DNA of 64,000 nucleotides from assembly GCA_035555335.1 (NCBI GenBank), contig DATMGS010000019.1:77500-141499 (forward strand), read 5' to 3'. Each line of letters starts with the position of its first letter. The first letter of the stretch is position 1. Positions 2,758 to 16,723 of this stretch are shown piece after piece. Under the pieces are notes generated by a model, which was given only the letters and a program-made list of their open reading frames with translations, had not been told where the DNA came from and did no database searches. Position numbers and translations under genes: made by a program. Source of the stretch: Puia sp. GTDB lineage: Bacteria; Bacteroidota; Bacteroidia; Chitinophagales; Chitinophagaceae.

Positions 2758-2773
2758 AGAGTGGGAGAAGGGA

Positions 2774-3298
2774 TTAAAAATTGTCGATTTGCCCTTCCAT
2801 CAGATTCGCTTTAAAATTTTCTTTAAAAGCGACAATATCAGCTACGCGTTTGGCGCTTTGCACTGGATGGGCTTGTTTTGCCTTTAGGCAAATTACTGCA
2901 TTCAAATCTGTATTTTGGAGGTTGATTCTGTTTCTAAACAATGCAATAGAAGAATGTAATTGCTGAATGGCATCTTTGCGTGCAGTTGCTCTTTGGCCAG
3001 TGTTTACTTGTTTGATTTCAACAAAATATAATTTTCGGAAATTACCTATAGTAAAATCACATCTTGATACGTCATTTGAGCGAAGAATACAATTGTCTAA
3101 GGCAGCAAAAATCAAGCTCTCGTTCAATGGATTTCGTAATGTAAAATGAACGGGCTGTCCTTCACTGGTTTTTATATAGCTCCTTTGCTGAGTGGGAATA
3201 CAATCATAACAATCAAAAACCTCGATTAAAATGCTGTTCGTTTCAGTAATGCATTCAGTTATATCTTCACCAAAAGCATTCCTCAATGCCTGTCTCAT
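2774..3298 (-). CDS. Hypothetical protein, putative PD-(D/E)xK-type nuclease
   Basis: 174 aa; SRCDF...LYFVEIK resembles the (P)D...(D/E)xK catalytic motif; the start codon overlaps the ATPase stop (ATGA at 3295-3298); AT-rich. Confidence 0.6.
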   Translation of the reverse strand: MRQALRNAFGEDITECITETNSILIEVFDCYDCIPTQQRSYIKTSEGQPVHFTLRNPLNESLIFAALDNCILRSNDVSRCDFTIGNFRKLYFVEIKQVNTGQRATARKDAIQQLHSSIALFRNRINLQNTDLNAVICLKAKQAHPVQSAKRVADIVAFKENFKANLMEGQIDNF

Positions 3299-4350
3299 GC
3301 AGTTGCCGGTTTATACATTTTCATTAGCTCATCGAATTCCCCGGCCAAATCTTCGGATATGCTGTCCAATGCATTCTCGTCAATCAAACCGGTATTGTCA
3401 TCTACGATCGAGGTGGCTCTGCCATCTATTAAGTAGAAAGCAGAGAAATCTTCTTTGTTTATCCAGGATTTTTGAGATATCACTTTATTTACAGCAGCTA
3501 CGTTGCTATTACTCTGATTGCCTACTTTTGCTGCAAAGAGCAGATTATTGGCAGCGCTTAAAATATAGGGACTGTGAGTAGGAAGTATGACATAGGCGCG
3601 GTCTAATCGAGGGTGCTTCATTCGCTCAATGATATAGTAAAGTAGTTTTTTCTGTAAGAGGGGAAAGCCGTGCAATTCCAATTCTTCAATCACAAATAAT
3701 GATGTTGGTTTCACTGGATACTGAAGAATGACTAATAATGGGAGATTGGCTTGTATAGCACTTGATGCTTCTTCGAGCAATAGGGATTTATTGTCTCTGA
3801 GTATTACAACATTTTTGCCTTCTCTATATTCAAATTCGACTTGTAAAATTGGCAGGTTGAATAGCTTTTGGTTTTTTCTTGCGATAGTGAAGTCTTTCCC
3901 GAATTGCAAAAAATAAGCAGGCAATGTACTTTGAGCAAGCACAACTTCAAATAGCGATTCAGTAATCATTGGCAACGCTATTCTTTCCGCAGGGAAGTAA
4001 TAGGCTTCGGTTTGGCTACTAGTCTTCTCCAAACTTTCTTTATGGTTGATTTTTATTTCTTCCCCCCTTAGTTCGAAGGAGAATAGCTCATCTTCGAAGA
4101 ACCAATATGAGTCTCTTTGAAGAAAATTTTCAATTCGATAATAGATCAAGAATTGCTTCAGTATTTCCGTATTTCTTTTTTTGTCAGCTACAGATGAAAT
4201 GTTGTAGTCAAATGCGTGAATGACGGCCAGGACCTTAGATATTGTGCTTTTACCAGAAGCATGGGGGCCAATTAAAATATTAAACTTACTTATTTCGATA
4301 TTAAGGTCATTTACAGGACCGAAATTCTGTATTTGCAATTTTGCTTTCAT
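3295..4350 (-). CDS. ABC-type ATPase (AAA_15/AAA_21-like)
   Basis: Start reassigned to the ATG at 4350 (MKAKLQIQNFGP). Walker A GPHASGKS, signature-like EEASSAIQ, Walker B LFVIEELE, H-loop PTHSPY. Confidence 0.88.
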   Translation of the reverse strand: MKAKLQIQNFGPVNDLNIEISKFNILIGPHASGKSTISKVLAVIHAFDYNISSVADKKRNTEILKQFLIYYRIENFLQRDSYWFFEDELFSFELRGEEIKINHKESLEKTSSQTEAYYFPAERIALPMITESLFEVVLAQSTLPAYFLQFGKDFTIARKNQKLFNLPILQVEFEYREGKNVVILRDNKSLLLEEASSAIQANLPLLVILQYPVKPTSLFVIEELELHGFPLLQKKLLYYIIERMKHPRLDRAYVILPTHSPYILSAANNLLFAAKVGNQSNSNVAAVNKVISQKSWINKEDFSAFYLIDGRATSIVDDNTGLIDENALDSISEDLAGEFDELMKMYKPATA

Positions 4351-4355
4351 TGCGC

Positions 4356-4363
4356 CAAATTTA
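4356..4363 (-). promoter_or_regulatory. Bacteroidota primary-sigma -7 promoter element for the ATPase-nuclease pair
   Basis: TAAATTTG on the minus strand (consensus TAnnTTTG), 5 nt before the ATG. Confidence 0.65.
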
Positions 4364-4415
4364 AGCAATTTATTTTTCTTCTTAAGCGTAACTATGGATG
4401 GTAGCCCCTCAGCCC

Positions 4416-5621
4416 TCACCCCGCCGTAAAATCGATTTTGCAGAGAGCAGCGGCGGCATTCAGACGCCCCGCATGCAGATGATCGGTAAGCTGCAGAAGC
4501 CTGGGACGGTATAACGCATAGTCGGCGCCATAAGCATCTCTCATGTTTTCCGCTTCGATATGGGAGATCCTCCCGTCGAAAGCCGCGGCAATAGTGAAGA
4601 GATTGAGCAGGAACCATCGCTCTTTTGCAGAAGCCGTACGCAGGGCTTCCAGAAACAGGTCCCAGTCATCATAATGATGATCCTTATGGAGGTGCAGCAG
4701 ATGCTGAAAACGGAGAAGCAATACGATCATATTGGGATGATAGTTCCGGGCCAGCACCACCGCATTGCCGATAGCCCGCATACAGCCGATCTTTGCAGAC
4801 TCCGAAAGCCGGTGAAGAGTACCTTCCTCCAGGATATGATCCGCCACATGATTGCAGAGAGCAAAACCAAACAGACGCAGACGGGCTTCTTTCACCACCC
4901 GCCGGATCACCAGCGCATTCCAGAAACATTCTACGGGAAGGGCGATATAGTTGATGGAAACGCCGGCAATGGTAGGACCCACCGTATGGAGGAGCAGCCA
5001 TTTGGCTACCAGGTTGGTGAGTATGATCTTACATTTATACAGCAGCCCCAGCAATAACAGATTTTTTTTGGATACCCTTTTGAAGGGATCGATACCCAGT
5101 ATGTGCAGTTCGGGATCCTGGATTTCCAGGGCCGCCCGGGAAAGGATATTGGTGATGCTGAAAGGACCGCTCTGCAAAAAATATTTTGGATCCGGCGCCT
5201 CGCCCCCAACCCCGCCCGGCCGGTCGCCCTTTCCCGCAATATCACCGCGGGGAGCCGCATGCGAACGCATGTTGATCAATTCGCTCACTTCATGGACAGC
5301 CCTGAGGGCAATGACGAACAGCAGGTAGAATTCAAGAAGGATGGAAGCCAGCGTCACGGCCCCAACCCAGGAATATTGAATATACCAGGGATCGTTCTGC
5401 CGCAGCACCCCGATCCAGACCGTCGGCCAGACACATACCAACCCGACAAACGCCGAAAAGAAGATCCCCTTTCCCGAAATGCGATTGACCCTGCTCGTCA
5501 GTTCCGCATCCGAAAAATCAAAAACATGGTGAAAGAGGTCTTTTTTCCGGAAAAGATCCAGGTAATAAACCCCAAACCTTTCCAGCAGGGGCGTTTTTCG
5601 CTCTTTAAATTCTATAGACAT
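4416..5621 (-). CDS. Hypothetical membrane protein (resembles the LBF_2804 family; TerB-like C-terminal segment)
   Basis: 401 aa with several hydrophobic helices; C-terminal AAAFDGRISHIE motif; family name from memory only. Confidence 0.55.
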   Translation of the reverse strand: MSIEFKERKTPLLERFGVYYLDLFRKKDLFHHVFDFSDAELTSRVNRISGKGIFFSAFVGLVCVWPTVWIGVLRQNDPWYIQYSWVGAVTLASILLEFYLLFVIALRAVHEVSELINMRSHAAPRGDIAGKGDRPGGVGGEAPDPKYFLQSGPFSITNILSRAALEIQDPELHILGIDPFKRVSKKNLLLLGLLYKCKIILTNLVAKWLLLHTVGPTIAGVSINYIALPVECFWNALVIRRVVKEARLRLFGFALCNHVADHILEEGTLHRLSESAKIGCMRAIGNAVVLARNYHPNMIVLLLRFQHLLHLHKDHHYDDWDLFLEALRTASAKERWFLLNLFTIAAAFDGRISHIEAENMRDAYGADYALYRPRLLQLTDHLHAGRLNAAAALCKIDFTAG

Positions 5622-12906: not shown

Positions 12907-15900
12907 AGCGTATAATCAATACTTTCTGACTATAGGTCTTTTTCCCTACCAGCACTTTAAGGGCATATACCCCGGAAGCCAGATTCCCCGCACTGATCTC
13001 ATTGTTGAAGAATCCGCTGAAGCTGCCATAGTTCTGCACATAGACTTCCTGTCCCAGGTAGTTATACAGCGAGACCGACACATTGTCCGCCGTATTGATG
13101 ACGAAATTCACCTTGAAGACACCGCTGCTGGGATTCGGATAGACGGCCAGGGAGATGGCCCCGCCACTGCCCGAAGCATATTTGATGACATTGCTGGCCT
13201 GGCTGCAGCCAAACGTATCCGTGGCGACAACCGTATAGGAACCGGTGACGATGGCCGTGTCCGTCTCCCCGGTGGCGCCCGGAATAAGGGTTCCGTTTAC
13301 ATACCATTGATAGCTGGCAGCCGCCGTGCTGGTCAGTACCTTCCCGCTCAGGGTGATCACCGGGGCCGTACCCGTAGTGGCTACCACCGGCACCCGCGTA
13401 CTGGGGCAATTGGCCATCTTGATACGCACGTCATACAGGAAATAATAATACTGTTGATACAAGGTCGGACTGGCTTTGGAGACGGCGCTGTTACTGGTGA
13501 TAGAGAATACCCCCGGTATCGTGAACGGATAGGGACTGCTGGTGATGCCATTGTTACGGAAAATCGTAGCCGTATCGCTGACGATATAGATGATATGGCT
13601 GCCCGTAGTGGGAACATTAAGCCCCAGCCAGAATATAGCCCCGGTATCCGATGCGTTATTCCCCGTGACCGCCCCGGATTGGGGATTCGGTGTCGTAGGA
13701 TAGGCATTGATGGTGGTAGAAGAGATTTCCGAAATATTATAGCTGCCGGTGGCCGTATCGAAATTGCTGATATCCGCCACATGGAAACTGATCGTCCCCG
13801 GATAACCGATGTATAGCCGGGCGCTCTCTATCGTCACCGGCACGGCATTGGTGAAGTTGATAAAGTTATAGCTGTAGGAATTGTACCCTCCGCTGGAAAA
13901 GACCAGTTTATTGGCAGGCCCCACTTTTGTGATGGCGTCATTCAGGCTCAGGTAATACGTATGATCGGACGTAATGGTACTGCTGGATGTATCGAGGCCC
14001 GAAGCGATCGGCGTAGTGGCCGTGGCGCTGGCATACCAGAAGGCGGCGTCACTGCTGCTGGCATTCGCCTTGAAATAGACCTTATCCGTGCCGCAAAGCT
14101 CAGCCGTTCCACTGGGAGTGCCGGCGTTGGTATTGACGACCAGGGTCGTAGTAGTCGTATCGTCGGAGGGTAGCTGATCACCGCTCAGACTGGTATAGCT
14201 GCTAAAGGTATAGGTGGTGCCGGACAAAGCATTAAAGCCGGTCTGATAAGTGAATACCGCATCGCTGTACGCAGGGATCGTACCCGGATAGACGCCGGTC
14301 AGCGTGGCCACCGTCGTGCTGCCGTTCAGGATGATCGTCGTAATGGGAACATTCTTCAACGCGGCCGATCCGAAGTTTTTTACCCGGATCGTAACCAGCT
14401 GCGAATCCGTGGCGCAGATCGTTCCCGCCGGAGCGACGATTTGCGTAATCCCGGCATCCGTGGCCGGAGCCACGATCTTGATCGTATAGTCCTGTGTCTC
14501 ACCATTGCCATACGTGCCACAGGCAGTCACGGCGGAAGGAACGGTGGTCTCTTCGGCTACGATGCGCATCAGCCCGAAGTTACCGGTGGTGAGGGAGGAC
14601 GGAGTGGTAATAGTACCGCTATAGGTAGTCGTTCCTCCGGTGAGAACGCCGCTGACGGCTGCCAGCTCACTGGTTTCGAAAACACCGTCATTGTTATAAT
14701 CGATAAAGACTTTCACTATTCGGCTGGCTGAGGTGGCGTCGCAGCTGCTCAGCGCAACCGTAATAGGCAGCGTCTGGTTGGGCTGGATCTGGCCTGTAAC
14801 GCTTGTATAGTCGGTATAGGACCTGCAGGTAGGAGTGGTGGTAGCCTGGCTGATATTGCTGAAGCTGACATTGTCGATCCGGGTGCCGGCCGTACTGGTG
14901 GCGGCTGAAGTGCAATACGCTGTTCCGCCCACGCCGCTGATCAATAAGGAATAAGCTTGCGTGGTATTGGTCAGCGTCCCTTTATGCGTGACCTTGATGA
15001 TATAGGCCTGCCCCGGCACCGGGTTGCTCACCACAATCTTTTCGACATTGTTGAGCGCATCATCACCGGTAGTAGCCGCATTGCCGGGATTCTTGGCATC
15101 CAGCACATAAGGCAGCCACTTTGAGGATCCGCTGGTGATCCGCACATCCAGGTCATTGACCAGCATCCTGGTCGTATTGTTCAATACGTTGCTGGCCGTT
15201 TCAGATATGGGCGTCCCGGCCGGGTCCGTCCAGCTGATGGTAGCCACCAGCGGCCCTTTACCGGAAGCCACTACGCTGAGGGTGAAGACACTGTCACTGG
15301 CGGTATTGCCCAGGGAGCTTTCATAGATCCGCTGGTCCCGGATGACCGATGTGTCGGAAGTGATGAGCGCTGCCGCTTTTTTGATATTGAGCAATCCCCA
15401 TCCGAAAGTAAAATCCGGACCATCTGCCGGGCCCGCCTCATCGGCTGTATGAATGGCGATACCCTTCAAAGTGGCCGAACGCATAAAGGCTCCGCTATGT
15501 AATTTGGCATAATACTCCTGCAGCAGAAGCAGAGAGCCCGTACTGGCCGGGGTTGCCATAGAAGTACCGCTATAGGTATCGTATGCATTATCAGCGGTGC
15601 CGATACAGGAAAAGACATTCACCCCATCCGCAACGACATCAGGCTTGATACGGCCATCATCGGTAGGACCCCAACTGCTGAAATCAGACATCACCACGTC
15701 ACTGACGCTGGAATAACCCCCGGGAATAGGGTTCACCGCCCCTACGACCAGGACATTCTTGGCGCATCCTGATGTCGGGATACAATCATACCCGTCATTG
15801 CTGCTGATCCCCGACGGCCGGTTACCCGCACTGGCCATGATCCCCGCCTTGTTATACCTCCAATAGGGCTGGCCAACGGCCGGCCCGGTCTCCCCCCGGT

Positions 15901-16723
15901 TGTTGCTGGCCGCTTTGACGATCAGGTATTGAGGGGCATTATAAGCTATCTGGTCCCAGGCCTGGGCGTCAGAACTATAATAGCCGAATTTATAATCGGC
16001 CGTGTCTCCATAATTTCCCCAGAACTCCCAGCGGCTGGCGTCGGAGTTATAATACCATCCGGCAATGCTGCCATAGGAATGGTTGGATACCAGGAGACTG
16101 GATGCGGCGCCCGCCATTTCCGAATTGTCATTATTATAATCATAAGCCAGCAATTGCTGCTCCCCAAAGGCCATCCCCTTTGCCAGGGGATTGACGCCGG
16201 TAGCGATCATCGTGCCGGATACATGGGTAGAGTGATCACTGATAGAAGTAGCATTGTCTTTCTGGGTAACCCTGCCGGTCAACTCCACATGCGTAGGCCG
16301 GGGCTTGGCTTCATCCCAGATAGCTATCTTCCCCTTCACCGAAGCAGAAGACCCATTCAGGTTCAGTCCGGTACTTCCTCCGGGCTGGATCTGGTTGGTT
16401 CCGATCGTAGCGGCCGAAATGATATTGTCATTGGTGGAAATATAAAGGGGATTGCCCTTGCCATCCACTCCACGCAGAACGGCAATACGCCCGCGCCGGC
16501 CCATTATTTTCAACGGCCATCCTTTTTGTTTGGCGAGAAACGAAAGCTGTTGGGCCATCGCCGCATCTTTTTGAGCGGCCTGCAGGCTGACCTGCTGAAG
16601 GGCTGCCTTGTTGGTGACAACCTGGGCCCGGGTAACTGAACAAATGAGCAGAACGAATAATAAAGTCGAAAGCAAATGGCTGACCGGAAGCGGGCACCTG
16701 AGCGAGCGTCTGTTTTTTCCCAT
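12905..16723 (-). CDS. S8 serine peptidase paralogue with GEVED domain and T9SS type A sorting domain
   Basis: Triad WDEA / DHSTHVSGT / SGTSMATP; GETQDY; C-terminal VYPNPSSG...LASGVYALKV; likely start at ATG 16723 (MGKNRR) rather than 16816. Confidence 0.93.
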   Translation of the reverse strand: MGKNRRSLRCPLPVSHLLSTLLFVLLICSVTRAQVVTNKAALQQVSLQAAQKDAAMAQQLSFLAKQKGWPLKIMGRRGRIAVLRGVDGKGNPLYISTNDNIISAATIGTNQIQPGGSTGLNLNGSSASVKGKIAIWDEAKPRPTHVELTGRVTQKDNATSISDHSTHVSGTMIATGVNPLAKGMAFGEQQLLAYDYNNDNSEMAGAASSLLVSNHSYGSIAGWYYNSDASRWEFWGNYGDTADYKFGYYSSDAQAWDQIAYNAPQYLIVKAASNNRGETGPAVGQPYWRYNKAGIMASAGNRPSGISSNDGYDCIPTSGCAKNVLVVGAVNPIPGGYSSVSDVVMSDFSSWGPTDDGRIKPDVVADGVNVFSCIGTADNAYDTYSGTSMATPASTGSLLLLQEYYAKLHSGAFMRSATLKGIAIHTADEAGPADGPDFTFGWGLLNIKKAAALITSDTSVIRDQRIYESSLGNTASDSVFTLSVVASGKGPLVATISWTDPAGTPISETASNVLNNTTRMLVNDLDVRITSGSSKWLPYVLDAKNPGNAATTGDDALNNVEKIVVSNPVPGQAYIIKVTHKGTLTNTTQAYSLLISGVGGTAYCTSAATSTAGTRIDNVSFSNISQATTTPTCRSYTDYTSVTGQIQPNQTLPITVALSSCDATSASRIVKVFIDYNNDGVFETSELAAVSGVLTGGTTTYSGTITTPSSLTTGNFGLMRIVAEETTVPSAVTACGTYGNGETQDYTIKIVAPATDAGITQIVAPAGTICATDSQLVTIRVKNFGSAALKNVPITTIILNGSTTVATLTGVYPGTIPAYSDAVFTYQTGFNALSGTTYTFSSYTSLSGDQLPSDDTTTTTLVVNTNAGTPSGTAELCGTDKVYFKANASSSDAAFWYASATATTPIASGLDTSSSTITSDHTYYLSLNDAITKVGPANKLVFSSGGYNSYSYNFINFTNAVPVTIESARLYIGYPGTISFHVADISNFDTATGSYNISEISSTTINAYPTTPNPQSGAVTGNNASDTGAIFWLGLNVPTTGSHIIYIVSDTATIFRNNGITSSPYPFTIPGVFSITSNSAVSKASPTLYQQYYYFLYDVRIKMANCPSTRVPVVATTGTAPVITLSGKVLTSTAAASYQWYVNGTLIPGATGETDTAIVTGSYTVVATDTFGCSQASNVIKYASGSGGAISLAVYPNPSSGVFKVNFVINTADNVSVSLYNYLGQEVYVQNYGSFSGFFNNEISAGNLASGVYALKVLVGKKTYSQKVLIIR

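What the first reader, a model, noticed from the sequence alone, without database searches (positions are those of the whole stretch)
2774..4363. AT-rich two-gene cassette: ABC-type ATPase translationally coupled to a PD-(D/E)xK-like nuclease (candidate anti-phage system)
Seen: a block of about 1.6 kb sits between the MazG-like gene and the 401-aa membrane gene. It is far more AT-rich than its neighbours (spot counts: 14/60 G+C at 3001-3060 versus 31/60 at 2461-2520). It has its own TAAATTTG promoter and two genes joined by an ATGA overlap. The second gene carries RCD...FVEIK. Established: an ABC ATPase plus nuclease pair is the architecture of Septu (PtuA/PtuB-HNH) and PARIS (AriA/AriB-TOPRIM). 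Inference: this is a horizontally acquired defence or abortive-infection module whose effector is restriction-endonuclease-like rather than HNH or TOPRIM, so it may not match a named system.
Basis: partly seen in the sequence, partly recalled or inferred. Interest (0 to 1): 0.7.

Follow-up and report, generated by a model that had tools for sequence, protein, structure and literature searches.

The report
ATPase-nuclease candidate phage defence cassette
A horizontally acquired 1.6-kb two-gene cassette (an ABC-type ATPase plus a small restriction-endonuclease-like protein) that belongs to a catalogued but untested candidate anti-phage system, PADLOC's PDC-M29; it is a real and tidy example, not a new kind of system.

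Summary
Two minus-strand genes, A (4350..3295, 351 aa) and B (3298..2774, 174 aa), overlap by ATGA. They form the most AT-rich 1.6 kb of the 64-kb window (GC 0.373 against 0.513).

- **A** is an ABC ATPase. Its AF2 model matches Rad50 heads and Septu PtuA at E about 1e-8.
- **B** has no Pfam or NCBIfam match. It keeps D68, D81, (E/D)94-x-K96 and Q113 across 60 diverse relatives, and its relatives' weak Pfam hits fall mostly on PD-(D/E)xK families.
- **Family:** both proteins best-match PADLOC's PDC-M29A (3e-38) and PDC-M29B (2e-16). PDC-M29 is one of 145 untested candidates from "guilt-by-embedding". An ABC ATPase paired with a PD-(D/E)xK effector is also already validated as HEC-02.
- **Acquisition:** ten relatives keep the same flanking genes. 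Seven have an empty site and three carry unrelated insertions there, so the cassette was gained.
- **Context:** elsewhere the pair is always together with the same 4-nt overlap. It mostly sits alone among housekeeping genes, and only one of 11 contexts is a defence island.

The likely mechanism, an ATPase sensor gating a nuclease effector, is inferred and not shown.

The parts
4356..4363 (-). TAAATTTG, a match to the Bacteroidota -7 promoter box (TAnnTTTG). It ends 5 nt before the ATG of gene A, which implies a leaderless or nearly leaderless mRNA.
   Evidence: Sequence read. A TAnnTTTG box lies at the same offset in homologous cassettes L003 and L005. The motif alone is not enriched in the window: 29 found against 32 expected. 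That TAnnTTTG is the Bacteroidota consensus is established knowledge, not tested here.
3295..4350 (-). Gene A: a 351-aa ABC-type (SMC/Rad50/PtuA-like) ATPase and a PDC-M29A homologue.
   Evidence: - Pfam AAA_15 4.3e-14 and AAA_21 3.8e-11.
- PADLOC PDC-M29A 3.2e-38; the next best hit is AriA at 2.5e-16.
- AF2 model pLDDT 87, pTM 0.88.
- Foldseek against PDB: 184 hits at E<=1e-3, led by Rad50 head at 1.6e-8 and Septu PtuA (8eea) at 3.3e-8.
4246..4269 (-). Walker A / P-loop of A (G28-P-H-A-S-G33-K34-S35).
   Evidence: G28, G33, K34 and S35 are invariant in 25 homologues that are 30-72% identical to A.
3673..3699 (-). Walker B region of A (L218-F-V-I-E222-E223-L-E225-L226). The usual Walker B Asp is Glu throughout this family.
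   Evidence: E222, E223 and E225 are invariant in alignment A4. Assigning them to the DEPE motif of AAA_21 is my reading of the sequence.
3565..3579 (-). H-loop of A (T258-H259-S260-P261-Y262).
   Evidence: S260, P261 and Y262 are invariant. T258 and H259 are at least 90% conserved.
3295..3298 (-). ATGA overlap between the stop codon of A and the start codon of B (translational coupling).
   Evidence: A 4-nt (A/G)TGA overlap is present in all 22 loci with both genes intact.
2774..3298 (-). Gene B: a 174-aa predicted PD-(D/E)xK-type nuclease and a PDC-M29B homologue. It has no Pfam or NCBIfam family.
   Evidence: - PADLOC PDC-M29B 2.4e-16 and 2.6e-8, HEC-02B 0.0028. No Pfam or NCBIfam hit.
- AF2 model pLDDT 89.7, pTM 0.87.
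- An exhaustive profile search finds 551 cluster representatives at E<=1e-3. The 150 best listed are mostly standalone proteins of about 160-190 aa, plus some fragments.
3011..3097 (-). Predicted catalytic core of B: D68 ... R79-C80-D81 ... E94-x-K96. The strands are at 62-66, 82-85 and 89-97, followed by helix 100-124, which carries Q113.
   Evidence: Over 60 family representatives 22-55% identical to B: D68 60/60, D81 60/60, position 94 is 55 E and 5 D, K96 58/60, Q113 59/60, C70 57/60, C80 59/60.
2758..2773 (.). Right junction: only 16 nt separate the stop codon of B from the stop codon of the convergent MazG-like gene (2389-2757, + strand).
   Evidence: Conservation among homologous cassettes stops at B's stop codon. 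No terminator-like hairpin is found.
4364..4415 (.). Left junction: spacer between the stop codon of the 401-aa membrane gene (5621..4416, minus strand) and the promoter box. The AT-rich inserted DNA begins at about 4395.
   Evidence: Compared with the empty sites of L007-L010, L014, L016 and L018. No target-site duplication or terminal repeats were found.

Best explanation
This is a horizontally acquired, self-contained two-gene cassette of the PDC-M29 type. Its promoter box sits directly before gene A.

Gene A encodes a small ABC ATPase of the SMC/Rad50/PtuA kind. Gene B is translationally coupled to A through an ATGA overlap. It encodes a 174-aa PD-(D/E)xK-type nuclease with predicted catalytic residues D81, E94 and K96, plus conserved D68 and Q113.

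The most likely mode of action is inferred by analogy with Septu (PtuAB), PARIS (AriAB) and HEC-02. The ATPase would oligomerise and hold the nuclease inactive in a complex of fixed stoichiometry. A phage-derived cue, or a change in nucleotide state, would alter the ATPase and license or release the nuclease. The nuclease would then cut nucleic acid (DNA, or possibly tRNA) and stop phage replication, possibly at the cost of the cell.

**Shown here:** gene structure, coupling, fold class of A, conserved motif of B, family membership, acquisition by insertion, strict co-occurrence of A and B.

**Inferred:** complex formation, the trigger, the substrate, and the anti-phage role itself.
For: **Family.** A best-matches PDC-M29A (3.2e-38) and B best-matches PDC-M29B (2.4e-16). 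Distant pairs L021, L038 and L039 also best-match PDC-M29A/B. L040 is a canonical member (A 4e-152, B 1e-59). So the window pair is a divergent branch with a short ATPase.

**ATPase.**
- The ABC fold of A is supported by Foldseek hits to Rad50 (1.6e-8), Septu PtuA (3.3e-8), retron PtuA, RecN and SMC.
- The Walker A motif, the EE Walker B and the H-loop are conserved.

**Nuclease.**
- D68 and D81 are invariant, and (E/D)94, K96 and Q113 are at least 97% conserved, over 60 representatives.
- The predicted order strand, strand, strand, helix, strand places D81 just before strand 82-85 and ExK inside strand 89-97. This is the classical PD-(D/E)xK layout.
- Sub-threshold Pfam hits of family members are led by PD-(D/E)xK families: HSDR_N_2 11/60, SduA_C 8/60, NERD 6/60, DUF2726, PDDEXK_9, HSDR_N and REase-ARP.
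- The best Foldseek hits of B include Nt.BspD6I, Mus81, XPF, Card1, Can2, Cdn1, McrC, HincII, Hjc and EndoMS.

**Coupling.** A and B are adjacent in every locus examined. The 4-nt overlap is present in 22/22 intact loci, and L021 and L040 overlap by 8-10 nt.

**Acquisition.**
- Seven relatives (flanking membrane protein 63-89% identical) have the membrane gene and MazG only about 10-45 nt apart, with no A or B.
- The cassette is the lowest-GC stretch of the window.

**Precedent.** HEC-02 (ABC ATPase plus NERD nuclease) protects against phages and needs both genes. PDC-M29 was nominated because copies are embedded in BREX, DISARM or type I RM loci (bioRxiv 10.1101/2024.01.29.577857).

**Context.** One homologous cassette (L034) lies in a defence island with SIR2-HerA, a ThiF/Multi_ubiq/BubE operon and a faint Zeta-toxin match. 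Another (L038) lies in an element with a serine recombinase, and L039 lies next to an IS1595 transposase.
Against: - PDC-M29 is untested, and I found no paper reporting activity.
- The nuclease fold of B is not statistically established. No Foldseek hit reaches E<=1e-3 in PDB or BFVD (TM 0.3-0.37). There is no PDB sequence hit and no Pfam hit above threshold.
- At this locus, and in about 7 of 11 independent contexts, the cassette sits alone among housekeeping genes. Examples are an arginine biosynthesis cluster, between sdhA and sdhB, and next to uvrA. That is not the typical signature of a defence gene.
- It was not found in phage, plasmid or IMG/VR collections.
- The Walker B Asp is replaced by Glu, so the ATPase chemistry could be atypical.
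- There is no expression evidence.
Confidence: 0.6

Rival explanations
1. The pair is a selfish addiction (toxin-antitoxin-like) module. B would be a toxic nuclease and A its ATP-dependent neutraliser. The pair would persist because losing it kills the cell, with no dedicated anti-phage role.
For: - The cassette sits alone inside core operons with no defence neighbours. It stays at the argF|FMN_bind_2 site across three lineages (L005, L035, L037), whose arg genes are 83-88% identical while A and B are 63-71% identical.
- Tight translational coupling would fix the stoichiometry.
- Pfam describes AAA_21 as "putative AbiEii toxin, Type IV TA system".
- L036 has a HEPN-nucleotidyltransferase pair 3 kb away.
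Against: - TA and abortive-infection functions are not exclusive, so this overlaps with the main explanation.
- In the known ABC ATPase plus nuclease pairs (Septu, PARIS, HEC-02) the pair acts in defence (and established knowledge).
- The upstream gene is the large ATPase, not a small labile antitoxin.
- A decayed copy exists (L033), so loss is tolerated.
Confidence: 0.15
2. The pair has a housekeeping DNA repair or maintenance role, analogous to Rad50-Mre11, SbcCD or RecN: an ABC ATPase working with a nuclease on chromosomal DNA ends.
For: - The best structural matches of A include Rad50, RecN and SMC heads.
- Neighbours are housekeeping genes, uvrA in one case.
- In one clade the pair is retained at a single site.
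Against: - The pair is absent from all 13 relatives that share the flanking membrane gene.
- Its distribution is patchy and its contexts differ between genomes.
- GC is 6-11 points below the flanks in 7 of 8 other loci.
- A has no coiled-coil insertion (351 aa).
- The best HMM matches are to defence-candidate families and not to repair families.
Confidence: 0.07
3. The cassette is a minimal selfish mobile element that spreads into intergenic spacers of conserved operons using its own nuclease, much like free-standing homing endonuclease genes. The ATPase would act as a helper.
For: - Conserved DNA is limited to about 25 nt upstream of A through B's stop codon.
- It sits in short spacers between conserved genes: membrane gene|MazG, argF|FMN_bind_2, sdhA|sdhB.
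- There is no recombinase, no terminal repeat and no target duplication.
Against: - No two unrelated genomes show the same target sequence with a filled and an empty state apart from this one site.
- The membrane gene|MazG spacer also holds three unrelated insertions in relatives. That points to a permissive spot and not to specific homing.
- No near-identical copies occur in different genomes. The closest relative is 72% identical, so there is no sign of recent spread.
- Some copies are next to ordinary mobile-element genes.
Confidence: 0.04

Closest known systems
PDC-M29 (PADLOC-DB v2 phage defence candidate; cassette CAS_00123, FAM_00005>>FAM_02872; Payne et al., bioRxiv 10.1101/2024.01.29.577857)
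   Same: - Both proteins have PDC-M29A and PDC-M29B as their best PADLOC match (3.2e-38 and 2.4e-16).
- The gene order is the same: ATPase first, then the small protein, with overlapping stop and start.
- A canonical member, L040 (A 4e-152, B 1e-59), shares the architecture.
   Different: - The window clade is a divergent branch. Its ATPase is 351 aa against a profile of about 410 positions, and it lacks a roughly 55-residue insertion seen in distant members.
- B covers profile positions 9-145 of 164.
- The cassette is not embedded in a BREX, DISARM or RM locus here.
- PDC-M29 itself is untested.
HEC-02 (ABC ATPase HEC-02A plus NERD-domain nuclease HEC-02B; experimentally protective, both genes required)
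   Same: - It has the same logic: a two-gene operon with an ABC ATPase and a small PD-(D/E)xK-superfamily effector.
- B has a weak HEC-02B match (E 0.0028).
- Six of 60 B relatives have weak NERD matches.
- L040's A has a HEC-02A match at 8e-10.
   Different: The similarity is far below family level. The window's A does not list HEC-02A among its top 25 matches. B has a distinctive cysteine-flanked motif (C70, C80) that I have not seen described for NERD.
Septu (PtuA ABC ATPase plus PtuB HNH nuclease), including retron Eco7/Ec78 PtuAB
   Same: - The A model matches PtuA structures 8eea, 8sux and 8ee4 at E 3e-8 to 6e-7, and PtuA HMMs at 1.5e-9.
- It is a two-gene ATPase plus nuclease operon.
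   Different: - The effector fold differs: HNH in PtuB, PD-(D/E)xK-like in B.
- The NCBIfam PtuA score is 25 against a cut-off of 500.
- A is shorter than PtuA.
PARIS (AriA ABC ATPase plus AriB TOPRIM/DUF4435 nuclease)
   Same: AriA is the second-best PADLOC hit of A (2.5e-16). The general logic is the same: an ATPase scaffold controls a nuclease effector (PMC11464382, abstract seen).
   Different: The best-scoring AriA stretch covers only residues 1-74 of A (a second stretch was reported). AriB is a TOPRIM protein, whereas B has no TOPRIM match.
Lamassu (LmuB SMC-like ABC ATPase plus LmuA effectors, some with Cap4- or Mrr-type PD-(D/E)xK nuclease domains)
   Same: An ABC ATPase is paired with a restriction-endonuclease-fold effector (my knowledge; also listed among ABC ATPase defences).
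   Different: LmuB has long coiled coils, and a third gene (LmuC) is common. No Lamassu model appears among the 25 best PADLOC hits shown for A, and none among B's five hits.

Membership tests
PDC-M29 (PADLOC candidate system) | The ATPase matches the PDC-M29A HMM. | tested here: met
   PDLC04562 at E 3.2e-38, 130 bits. It is the best of 94 hits and 22 orders of magnitude ahead of AriA.
PDC-M29 (PADLOC candidate system) | The small partner matches the PDC-M29B HMM. | tested here: met
   PDLC04563 at E 2.4e-16, residues 15-153 on profile positions 9-145 of 164. PDLC04564 at 2.6e-8.
PDC-M29 (PADLOC candidate system) | The two genes are adjacent, on the same strand, in the order A then B. | tested here: met
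   A is 4350..3295 and B is 3298..2774, both on the minus strand, with an ATGA overlap. The order is the same in every homologous locus where both genes were found.
PDC-M29 (PADLOC candidate system) | PADLOC itself calls the system, using its own E-value, coverage and synteny rules. | not testable with these tools
   Only the HMM library was available, not the PADLOC pipeline.
Anti-phage defence system (functional class) | It protects against phage infection when expressed. | not testable with these tools
The source paper calls the 145 PDC systems untested.
Anti-phage defence system (functional class) | It is located in defence islands or embedded in known systems. | tested here: inconclusive
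   - It is not in a defence island in this window. Its neighbours are a TonB-dependent receptor, MazG, a membrane protein and GlyRS.
- Of 11 independent contexts, 1 is a clear defence island (L034), 1 is near a HEPN-MNT pair and 2 are in or next to mobile elements. The remaining 7 are housekeeping contexts.
ABC ATPase (SMC/Rad50/OLD-like clade) | Walker A motif GxxxxGK[ST]. | tested here: met
   G28-PHAS-G33-K34-S35 is invariant in 25 homologues.
ABC ATPase (SMC/Rad50/OLD-like clade) | Walker B motif hhhhD followed by a catalytic Glu. | tested here: inconclusive
   The sequence is F-V-I-E222-E223. The catalytic Glu is present, but the Asp is replaced by Glu in all 25 homologues. This is a conservative variant whose effect is unknown.
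ABC ATPase (SMC/Rad50/OLD-like clade) | ABC head-domain fold. | tested here: met
   AF2 model pLDDT 87, pTM 0.88. Foldseek gives probability 1.00 and E 1.6e-8 to 1e-6 against Rad50, PtuA, RecN and SMC heads, with 184 hits at E<=1e-3.
PD-(D/E)xK nuclease superfamily (for B) | Conserved D ... (D/E)xK catalytic motif on adjacent strands. | tested here: met
   D81 60/60, position 94 is 55 E and 5 D, K96 58/60. D81 lies just before strand 82-85, and E94 and K96 lie inside strand 89-97.
PD-(D/E)xK nuclease superfamily (for B) | Restriction-endonuclease-like alpha-beta-beta-beta-alpha-beta core shown by significant structural or profile similarity. | tested here: inconclusive
   - The element order fits.
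- Many top Foldseek hits are PD-(D/E)xK nucleases, but none reaches E<=1e-3 and TM is 0.3-0.37.
- Pfam hits of relatives are led by PD-(D/E)xK families, but all are at E>=5.8e-4, and the query itself has no hit.
Septu | PtuB-type HNH nuclease partner. | tested here: not met
   B has no HNH or PtuB match in Pfam, NCBIfam or PADLOC.
PARIS | AriB-type TOPRIM/DUF4435 partner. | tested here: not met
   B has no TOPRIM or AriB match.
HEC-02 | Partner is a NERD-domain protein that matches HEC-02B. | tested here: inconclusive
   HEC-02B at E 0.0028 and 0.032. NERD Pfam hits occur in 6 of 60 relatives, best E 0.016. This is similarity at superfamily level, not family level.

The most novel reading that the evidence does not exclude
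The window clade would be a functional, previously untested defence (or addiction) system whose effector is an uncharacterised, cysteine-flanked PD-(D/E)xK family with no Pfam model. Unlike most defence systems, it would persist as a recombinase-free, solitary cassette wedged into core operons (arg cluster, sdh operon, this MazG junction). That would imply a maintenance or spread mechanism of its own, such as addiction or nuclease-assisted insertion, and possibly an RNA or tRNA target as in PARIS and retron-Eco7.
Probability: 0.12. Interest if true: 0.6.

Novelty: new member of a known kind. Interest (0 to 1): 0.35.

Why it matters
If it is functional, this pair would validate one of the 145 untested PADLOC candidates. 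It would also add a compact ABC ATPase plus PD-(D/E)xK pair (351 + 174 aa) from Bacteroidota soil bacteria to the set of ATPase-gated nuclease defences.

The B family is sizeable, with 551 cluster representatives, and has no Pfam model. Assigning it a fold and a catalytic motif is therefore useful annotation.

The context survey gives a concrete example of a defence-candidate cassette that lives mostly outside defence islands. That is the class that island-based discovery misses. None of this changes current concepts. It is a solid but ordinary candidate.

Tried and rejected
- **Literature:** a full-text search for "PDC-M29" found no paper. The name occurs only in a supplement of the guilt-by-embedding preprint.
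- **PDB by sequence:** neither A nor the B profile has a meaningful hit.
- **Fold search for B:** no significant hit in PDB or the viral library BFVD. I did not treat any single hit as proof.
- **Mobility signatures:** I found no convincing terminal inverted or direct repeats and no target-site duplication around the cassette. The flanks of homologous cassettes share no DNA beyond the promoter box and the stop codon.
- **Phage or plasmid carriage:**
  - There are no relatives in IMG/VR.
  - There are none in GenBank phages or PLSDB plasmids by tblastn.
  - A first viral scan with the broad alignment failed for lack of a conserved stretch.
- **Expression:** only one soil metagenome DNA run holds the cassette and there is no RNA run, so I did not lay reads.
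- **RNA elements and terminators:** there is no Rfam match and no terminator after B. The sigma-70-type promoter hits there are uninformative for Bacteroidota.
- **Promoter motif statistics:** TAnnTTTG is not enriched in the window, so I rejected the motif count as evidence.
- **The 440-aa reading of gene A (3295..4617):** rejected, because it overlaps the conserved 401-aa gene and homologues start at MKA.
Full report
**1. What is in the sequence**

Both genes lie on the minus strand.
- Gene A runs 4350..3295 (351 aa, starting MKAKLQIQNF).
- The longer 440-aa ORF that reaches 4617 overlaps the end of the neighbouring 401-aa gene. It is not supported by homologues, which all start at the MKA position.
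- Gene B runs 3298..2774 (174 aa).
- The stop codon of A and the start codon of B overlap as ATGA at 3298-3295.

The cassette has GC 0.373. Sliding 1577-nt stretches across the window average 0.513 (sd 0.033), and the cassette is the lowest of them.

TAAATTTG lies at 4363-4356 on the minus strand and ends 5 nt before the ATG. The TAnnTTTG pattern is not enriched in the window, with 29 matches against 32 expected, so the motif alone says little. However, a TAnnTTTG box sits at the same distance from the ATG in homologous cassettes L003 and L005. That makes a real Bacteroidota -7 box, and a leaderless or near-leaderless mRNA, plausible. There is no Rfam match and no terminator-like hairpin after B.

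**2. Gene A is an ABC ATPase**

- Pfam gives AAA_15 (4.3e-14) and AAA_21 (3.8e-11).
- In 25 homologues that are 30-72% identical, the Walker A residues (G28, G33, K34, S35), E222-E223-x-E225, S197, and S260-P261-Y262 of the T258-HSPY H-loop are invariant. T258, H259 and Q200 are at least 90% conserved.
- The usual Walker B aspartate is a glutamate throughout the family.
- The AF2 model is confident (pLDDT 87, pTM 0.88).
- Foldseek against PDB returns 184 hits at E<=1e-3. The top hits are Rad50 heads (1.6e-8), Septu PtuA (8eea, 3.3e-8), retron Eco8 and Eco7/Ec78 PtuA, RecN and SMC heads.
- There is no PDB hit at the sequence level.

**3. Gene B is most likely a PD-(D/E)xK nuclease, but the fold is not statistically proven**

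B has no Pfam or NCBIfam match. An exhaustive profile search finds 551 cluster representatives at E<=1e-3 and 239 at E<=1e-10. The 150 best listed are mostly standalone proteins of about 160-190 aa, plus some fragments.

Conservation across 60 representatives that are 22-55% identical to B:

| Position | Count |
|---|---|
| D68 | 60/60 |
| D81 | 60/60 |
| 94 | 55 E, 5 D |
| K96 | 58/60 |
| Q113 | 59/60 |
| C16 | 59/60 |
| C70 | 57/60 |
| C80 | 59/60 |

- The AF2 model (pLDDT 89.7, pTM 0.87) places D81 immediately before strand 82-85 and E94-x-K96 inside strand 89-97. A long helix (100-124) and another strand (131-139) follow. This is the classical arrangement of the restriction-endonuclease-like core.
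- When the 60 members are scanned one by one against Pfam, the most frequent weak hits are PD-(D/E)xK families: HSDR_N_2 (11 members), SduA_C (8), NERD (6), DUF2726, PDDEXK_9, HSDR_N and REase-ARP. The rest are scattered single hits to unrelated families.
- Foldseek gives no hit at E<=1e-3 in PDB or BFVD. The weak hits that align about 90-110 columns at 4-6 Å are largely PD-(D/E)xK nucleases: Nt.BspD6I, Mus81, XPF, Card1, Can2, Cdn1, Hjc and, among the viral proteins, ERCC4-type proteins. McrC, HincII, EndoMS and herpesvirus UL24 also appear, but with poorer superpositions.

I read this as convergent but individually weak evidence. The motif is established; the fold is probable.

**4. Family assignment**

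Against PADLOC-DB v2, A best-matches PDC-M29A (3.2e-38; next is AriA at 2.5e-16). B best-matches PDC-M29B (2.4e-16 and 2.6e-8) and has a faint HEC-02B hit at 0.0028.

Distant pairs from other genomes also best-match PDC-M29A/B. One, L040 from a Prolixibacteraceae MAG, is a canonical full-length member (A 4e-152, B 1e-59). The window pair is therefore a divergent branch of PDC-M29 with a short ATPase. It lacks a roughly 55-residue insertion present in distant A homologues.

The source paper (bioRxiv 10.1101/2024.01.29.577857) explains the following.
- PDC systems are 145 untested candidates found because copies are embedded in BREX, DISARM or type I RM loci.
- PDC-M29 is cassette CAS_00123 (FAM_00005>>FAM_02872, listed with the number 110).
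- HEC-02, an ABC ATPase plus a NERD (PD-(D/E)xK) protein, was tested and protects, with both genes required.

**5. Acquisition and genomic behaviour**

A genome-collection scan with the 401-aa membrane protein found 14 loci in Puia, Chitinophagaceae, Sediminibacterium and other Bacteroidota MAGs. In 13 of them the sequence held extends past the gene's end, and none of those carries A or B.

Ten of them keep the membrane gene next to MazG.
- In seven (L007-L010, L014, L016, L018; membrane protein 63-89% identical) the membrane gene and MazG are only about 10-45 nt apart.
- Three others carry unrelated insertions at the same junction: an FtsX-type permease in L011, a 317-aa membrane protein in L019, and an unrelated 174-aa ORF in L017.

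So the junction of these two convergent genes is a permissive spot, and the cassette was gained in the window's lineage.

No terminal repeats, target duplication or recombinase accompany the cassette. Conserved DNA among cassettes ends at B's stop codon and about 25 nt upstream of A.

Contexts elsewhere:

| Locus | Context |
|---|---|
| L001 (Chitinophaga sp. CF118) | between a GH20 gene and a polysaccharide utilisation locus |
| L003 | between a CBM9 protein and a peptidase |
| L005, L035, L037 | inside an arginine biosynthesis cluster, three lineages |
| L021 | between sdhA and sdhB |
| contig of P0113 | after uvrA |
| L036 | near a HEPN-nucleotidyltransferase pair |
| L034 | true defence island (SIR2-HerA, ThiF/Multi_ubiq/BubE, faint Zeta-toxin match) |
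| L038 | element with a serine recombinase |
| L039 | next to an IS1595 transposase |
| L040 | housekeeping genes |

- In the arginine-cluster clade, the arg genes are 83-88% identical while A and B are 63-71% identical. The cassette has been resident there for a long time and evolves faster than core genes.
- The cassette's GC is 6-11 points below its flanks in 7 of 8 other loci, including that clade. Low GC is therefore a lasting property of the cassette and not only a mark of recent arrival.
- A and B are adjacent everywhere. The 4-nt (A/G)TGA overlap is present in all 22 loci with both genes intact, including the distant pairs L038 and L039. L033 looks like a decayed copy.
- The family was not found in IMG/VR, GenBank phages or PLSDB plasmids.

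**6. Mechanism**

Shown: a co-transcribed, translationally coupled ABC ATPase and a small protein with a conserved PD-(D/E)xK motif, strictly co-inherited.

Inferred by analogy with Septu, PARIS and HEC-02: the ATPase forms an oligomeric scaffold or sensor that keeps the nuclease in check. A phage cue or a change in nucleotide state then licenses the nuclease to cut DNA, or possibly tRNA, which aborts infection.

Rivals are a pure addiction module, a repair function and a homing-like selfish element. I give the defence reading 0.6, mostly because the family is untested and most contexts are not defence islands.

**7. Verdict**

However, the cassette does match a catalogued candidate (PDC-M29), and the pairing of an ABC ATPase with a PD-(D/E)xK effector is already known (HEC-02, Lamassu). 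It is a new member of a known kind, of moderate-to-low interest.

Noticed in passing
window 2758-2773 and 4364-4415; L011:7135-9635, L019:7132-8119, L017:4224-4797: The junction between the convergent 401-aa membrane gene and the MazG-like gene is a variable spot. Relatives carry three different unrelated insertions there: a 786-aa FtsX/MacB-type permease, a 317-aa multi-pass membrane protein and a 174-aa ORF unrelated to B. Seven relatives have an empty site.
   Followed up: partly
L033:77-1089: This looks like a decayed copy of the cassette. A matches only residues 5-241 and B only residues 63-169, and the two segments abut. That is consistent with an internal deletion fusing the two genes.
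   Followed up: no
L021:7993-12417: A distant A-B pair (410 aa plus 144 aa) sits between sdhA and sdhB of a succinate dehydrogenase operon. sdhA is called there as two ORFs (527 aa plus 112 aa), which may be a frameshift or a sequencing error.
   Followed up: no
L005:7887-11168, L035:7888-11140, L037:3542-6794: In three lineages the cassette occupies the same site inside an arginine biosynthesis cluster, between the ornithine carbamoyltransferase gene and an FMN_bind_2 gene. The arg genes are 83-88% identical while A and B are 63-71% identical. This suggests long residence with faster evolution, or allele replacement.
   Followed up: partly
window 2774-3298 (B residues C16, C70, C80): Three cysteines are at least 95% conserved across the B family. 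Two of them flank the catalytic aspartates (D68-x-C70 and C80-D81). They may form a metal site or a redox-sensitive site. I could not inspect the model coordinates to test whether they lie close together.
   Followed up: no
window 3673-3699 (A residues 218-226): The Walker B aspartate of the ABC ATPase is a glutamate (hhhhEE) in all 25 homologues aligned. This is an unusual variant with unknown effect on ATP hydrolysis.
   Followed up: no
window 4416-5621 (minus strand): The 401-aa predicted membrane protein has no Pfam family. Yet it lies next to the glycyl-tRNA synthetase gene in 12 of the 14 related MAG loci recovered (Puia, Chitinophagaceae and other Bacteroidota). The two Sediminibacterium loci showed no GlyRS or MazG match within the sequence held.
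   Followed up: no
L034:2564-4407 and 13084-16039: One homologous cassette lies in a dense defence island. It contains a Multi_ubiq/ThiF(E1-like)/BubE operon, a Kinase-PolyVal protein, a DprA-like gene, a protein with a faint Zeta-toxin match and a SIR2-HerA pair.
   Followed up: no
L001:8829-10004: The public gene call for the Chitinophaga sp. CF118 ATPase (391 aa) starts 120 nt upstream of the start that homology supports (L001:8949), so it is probably over-extended.
   Followed up: no
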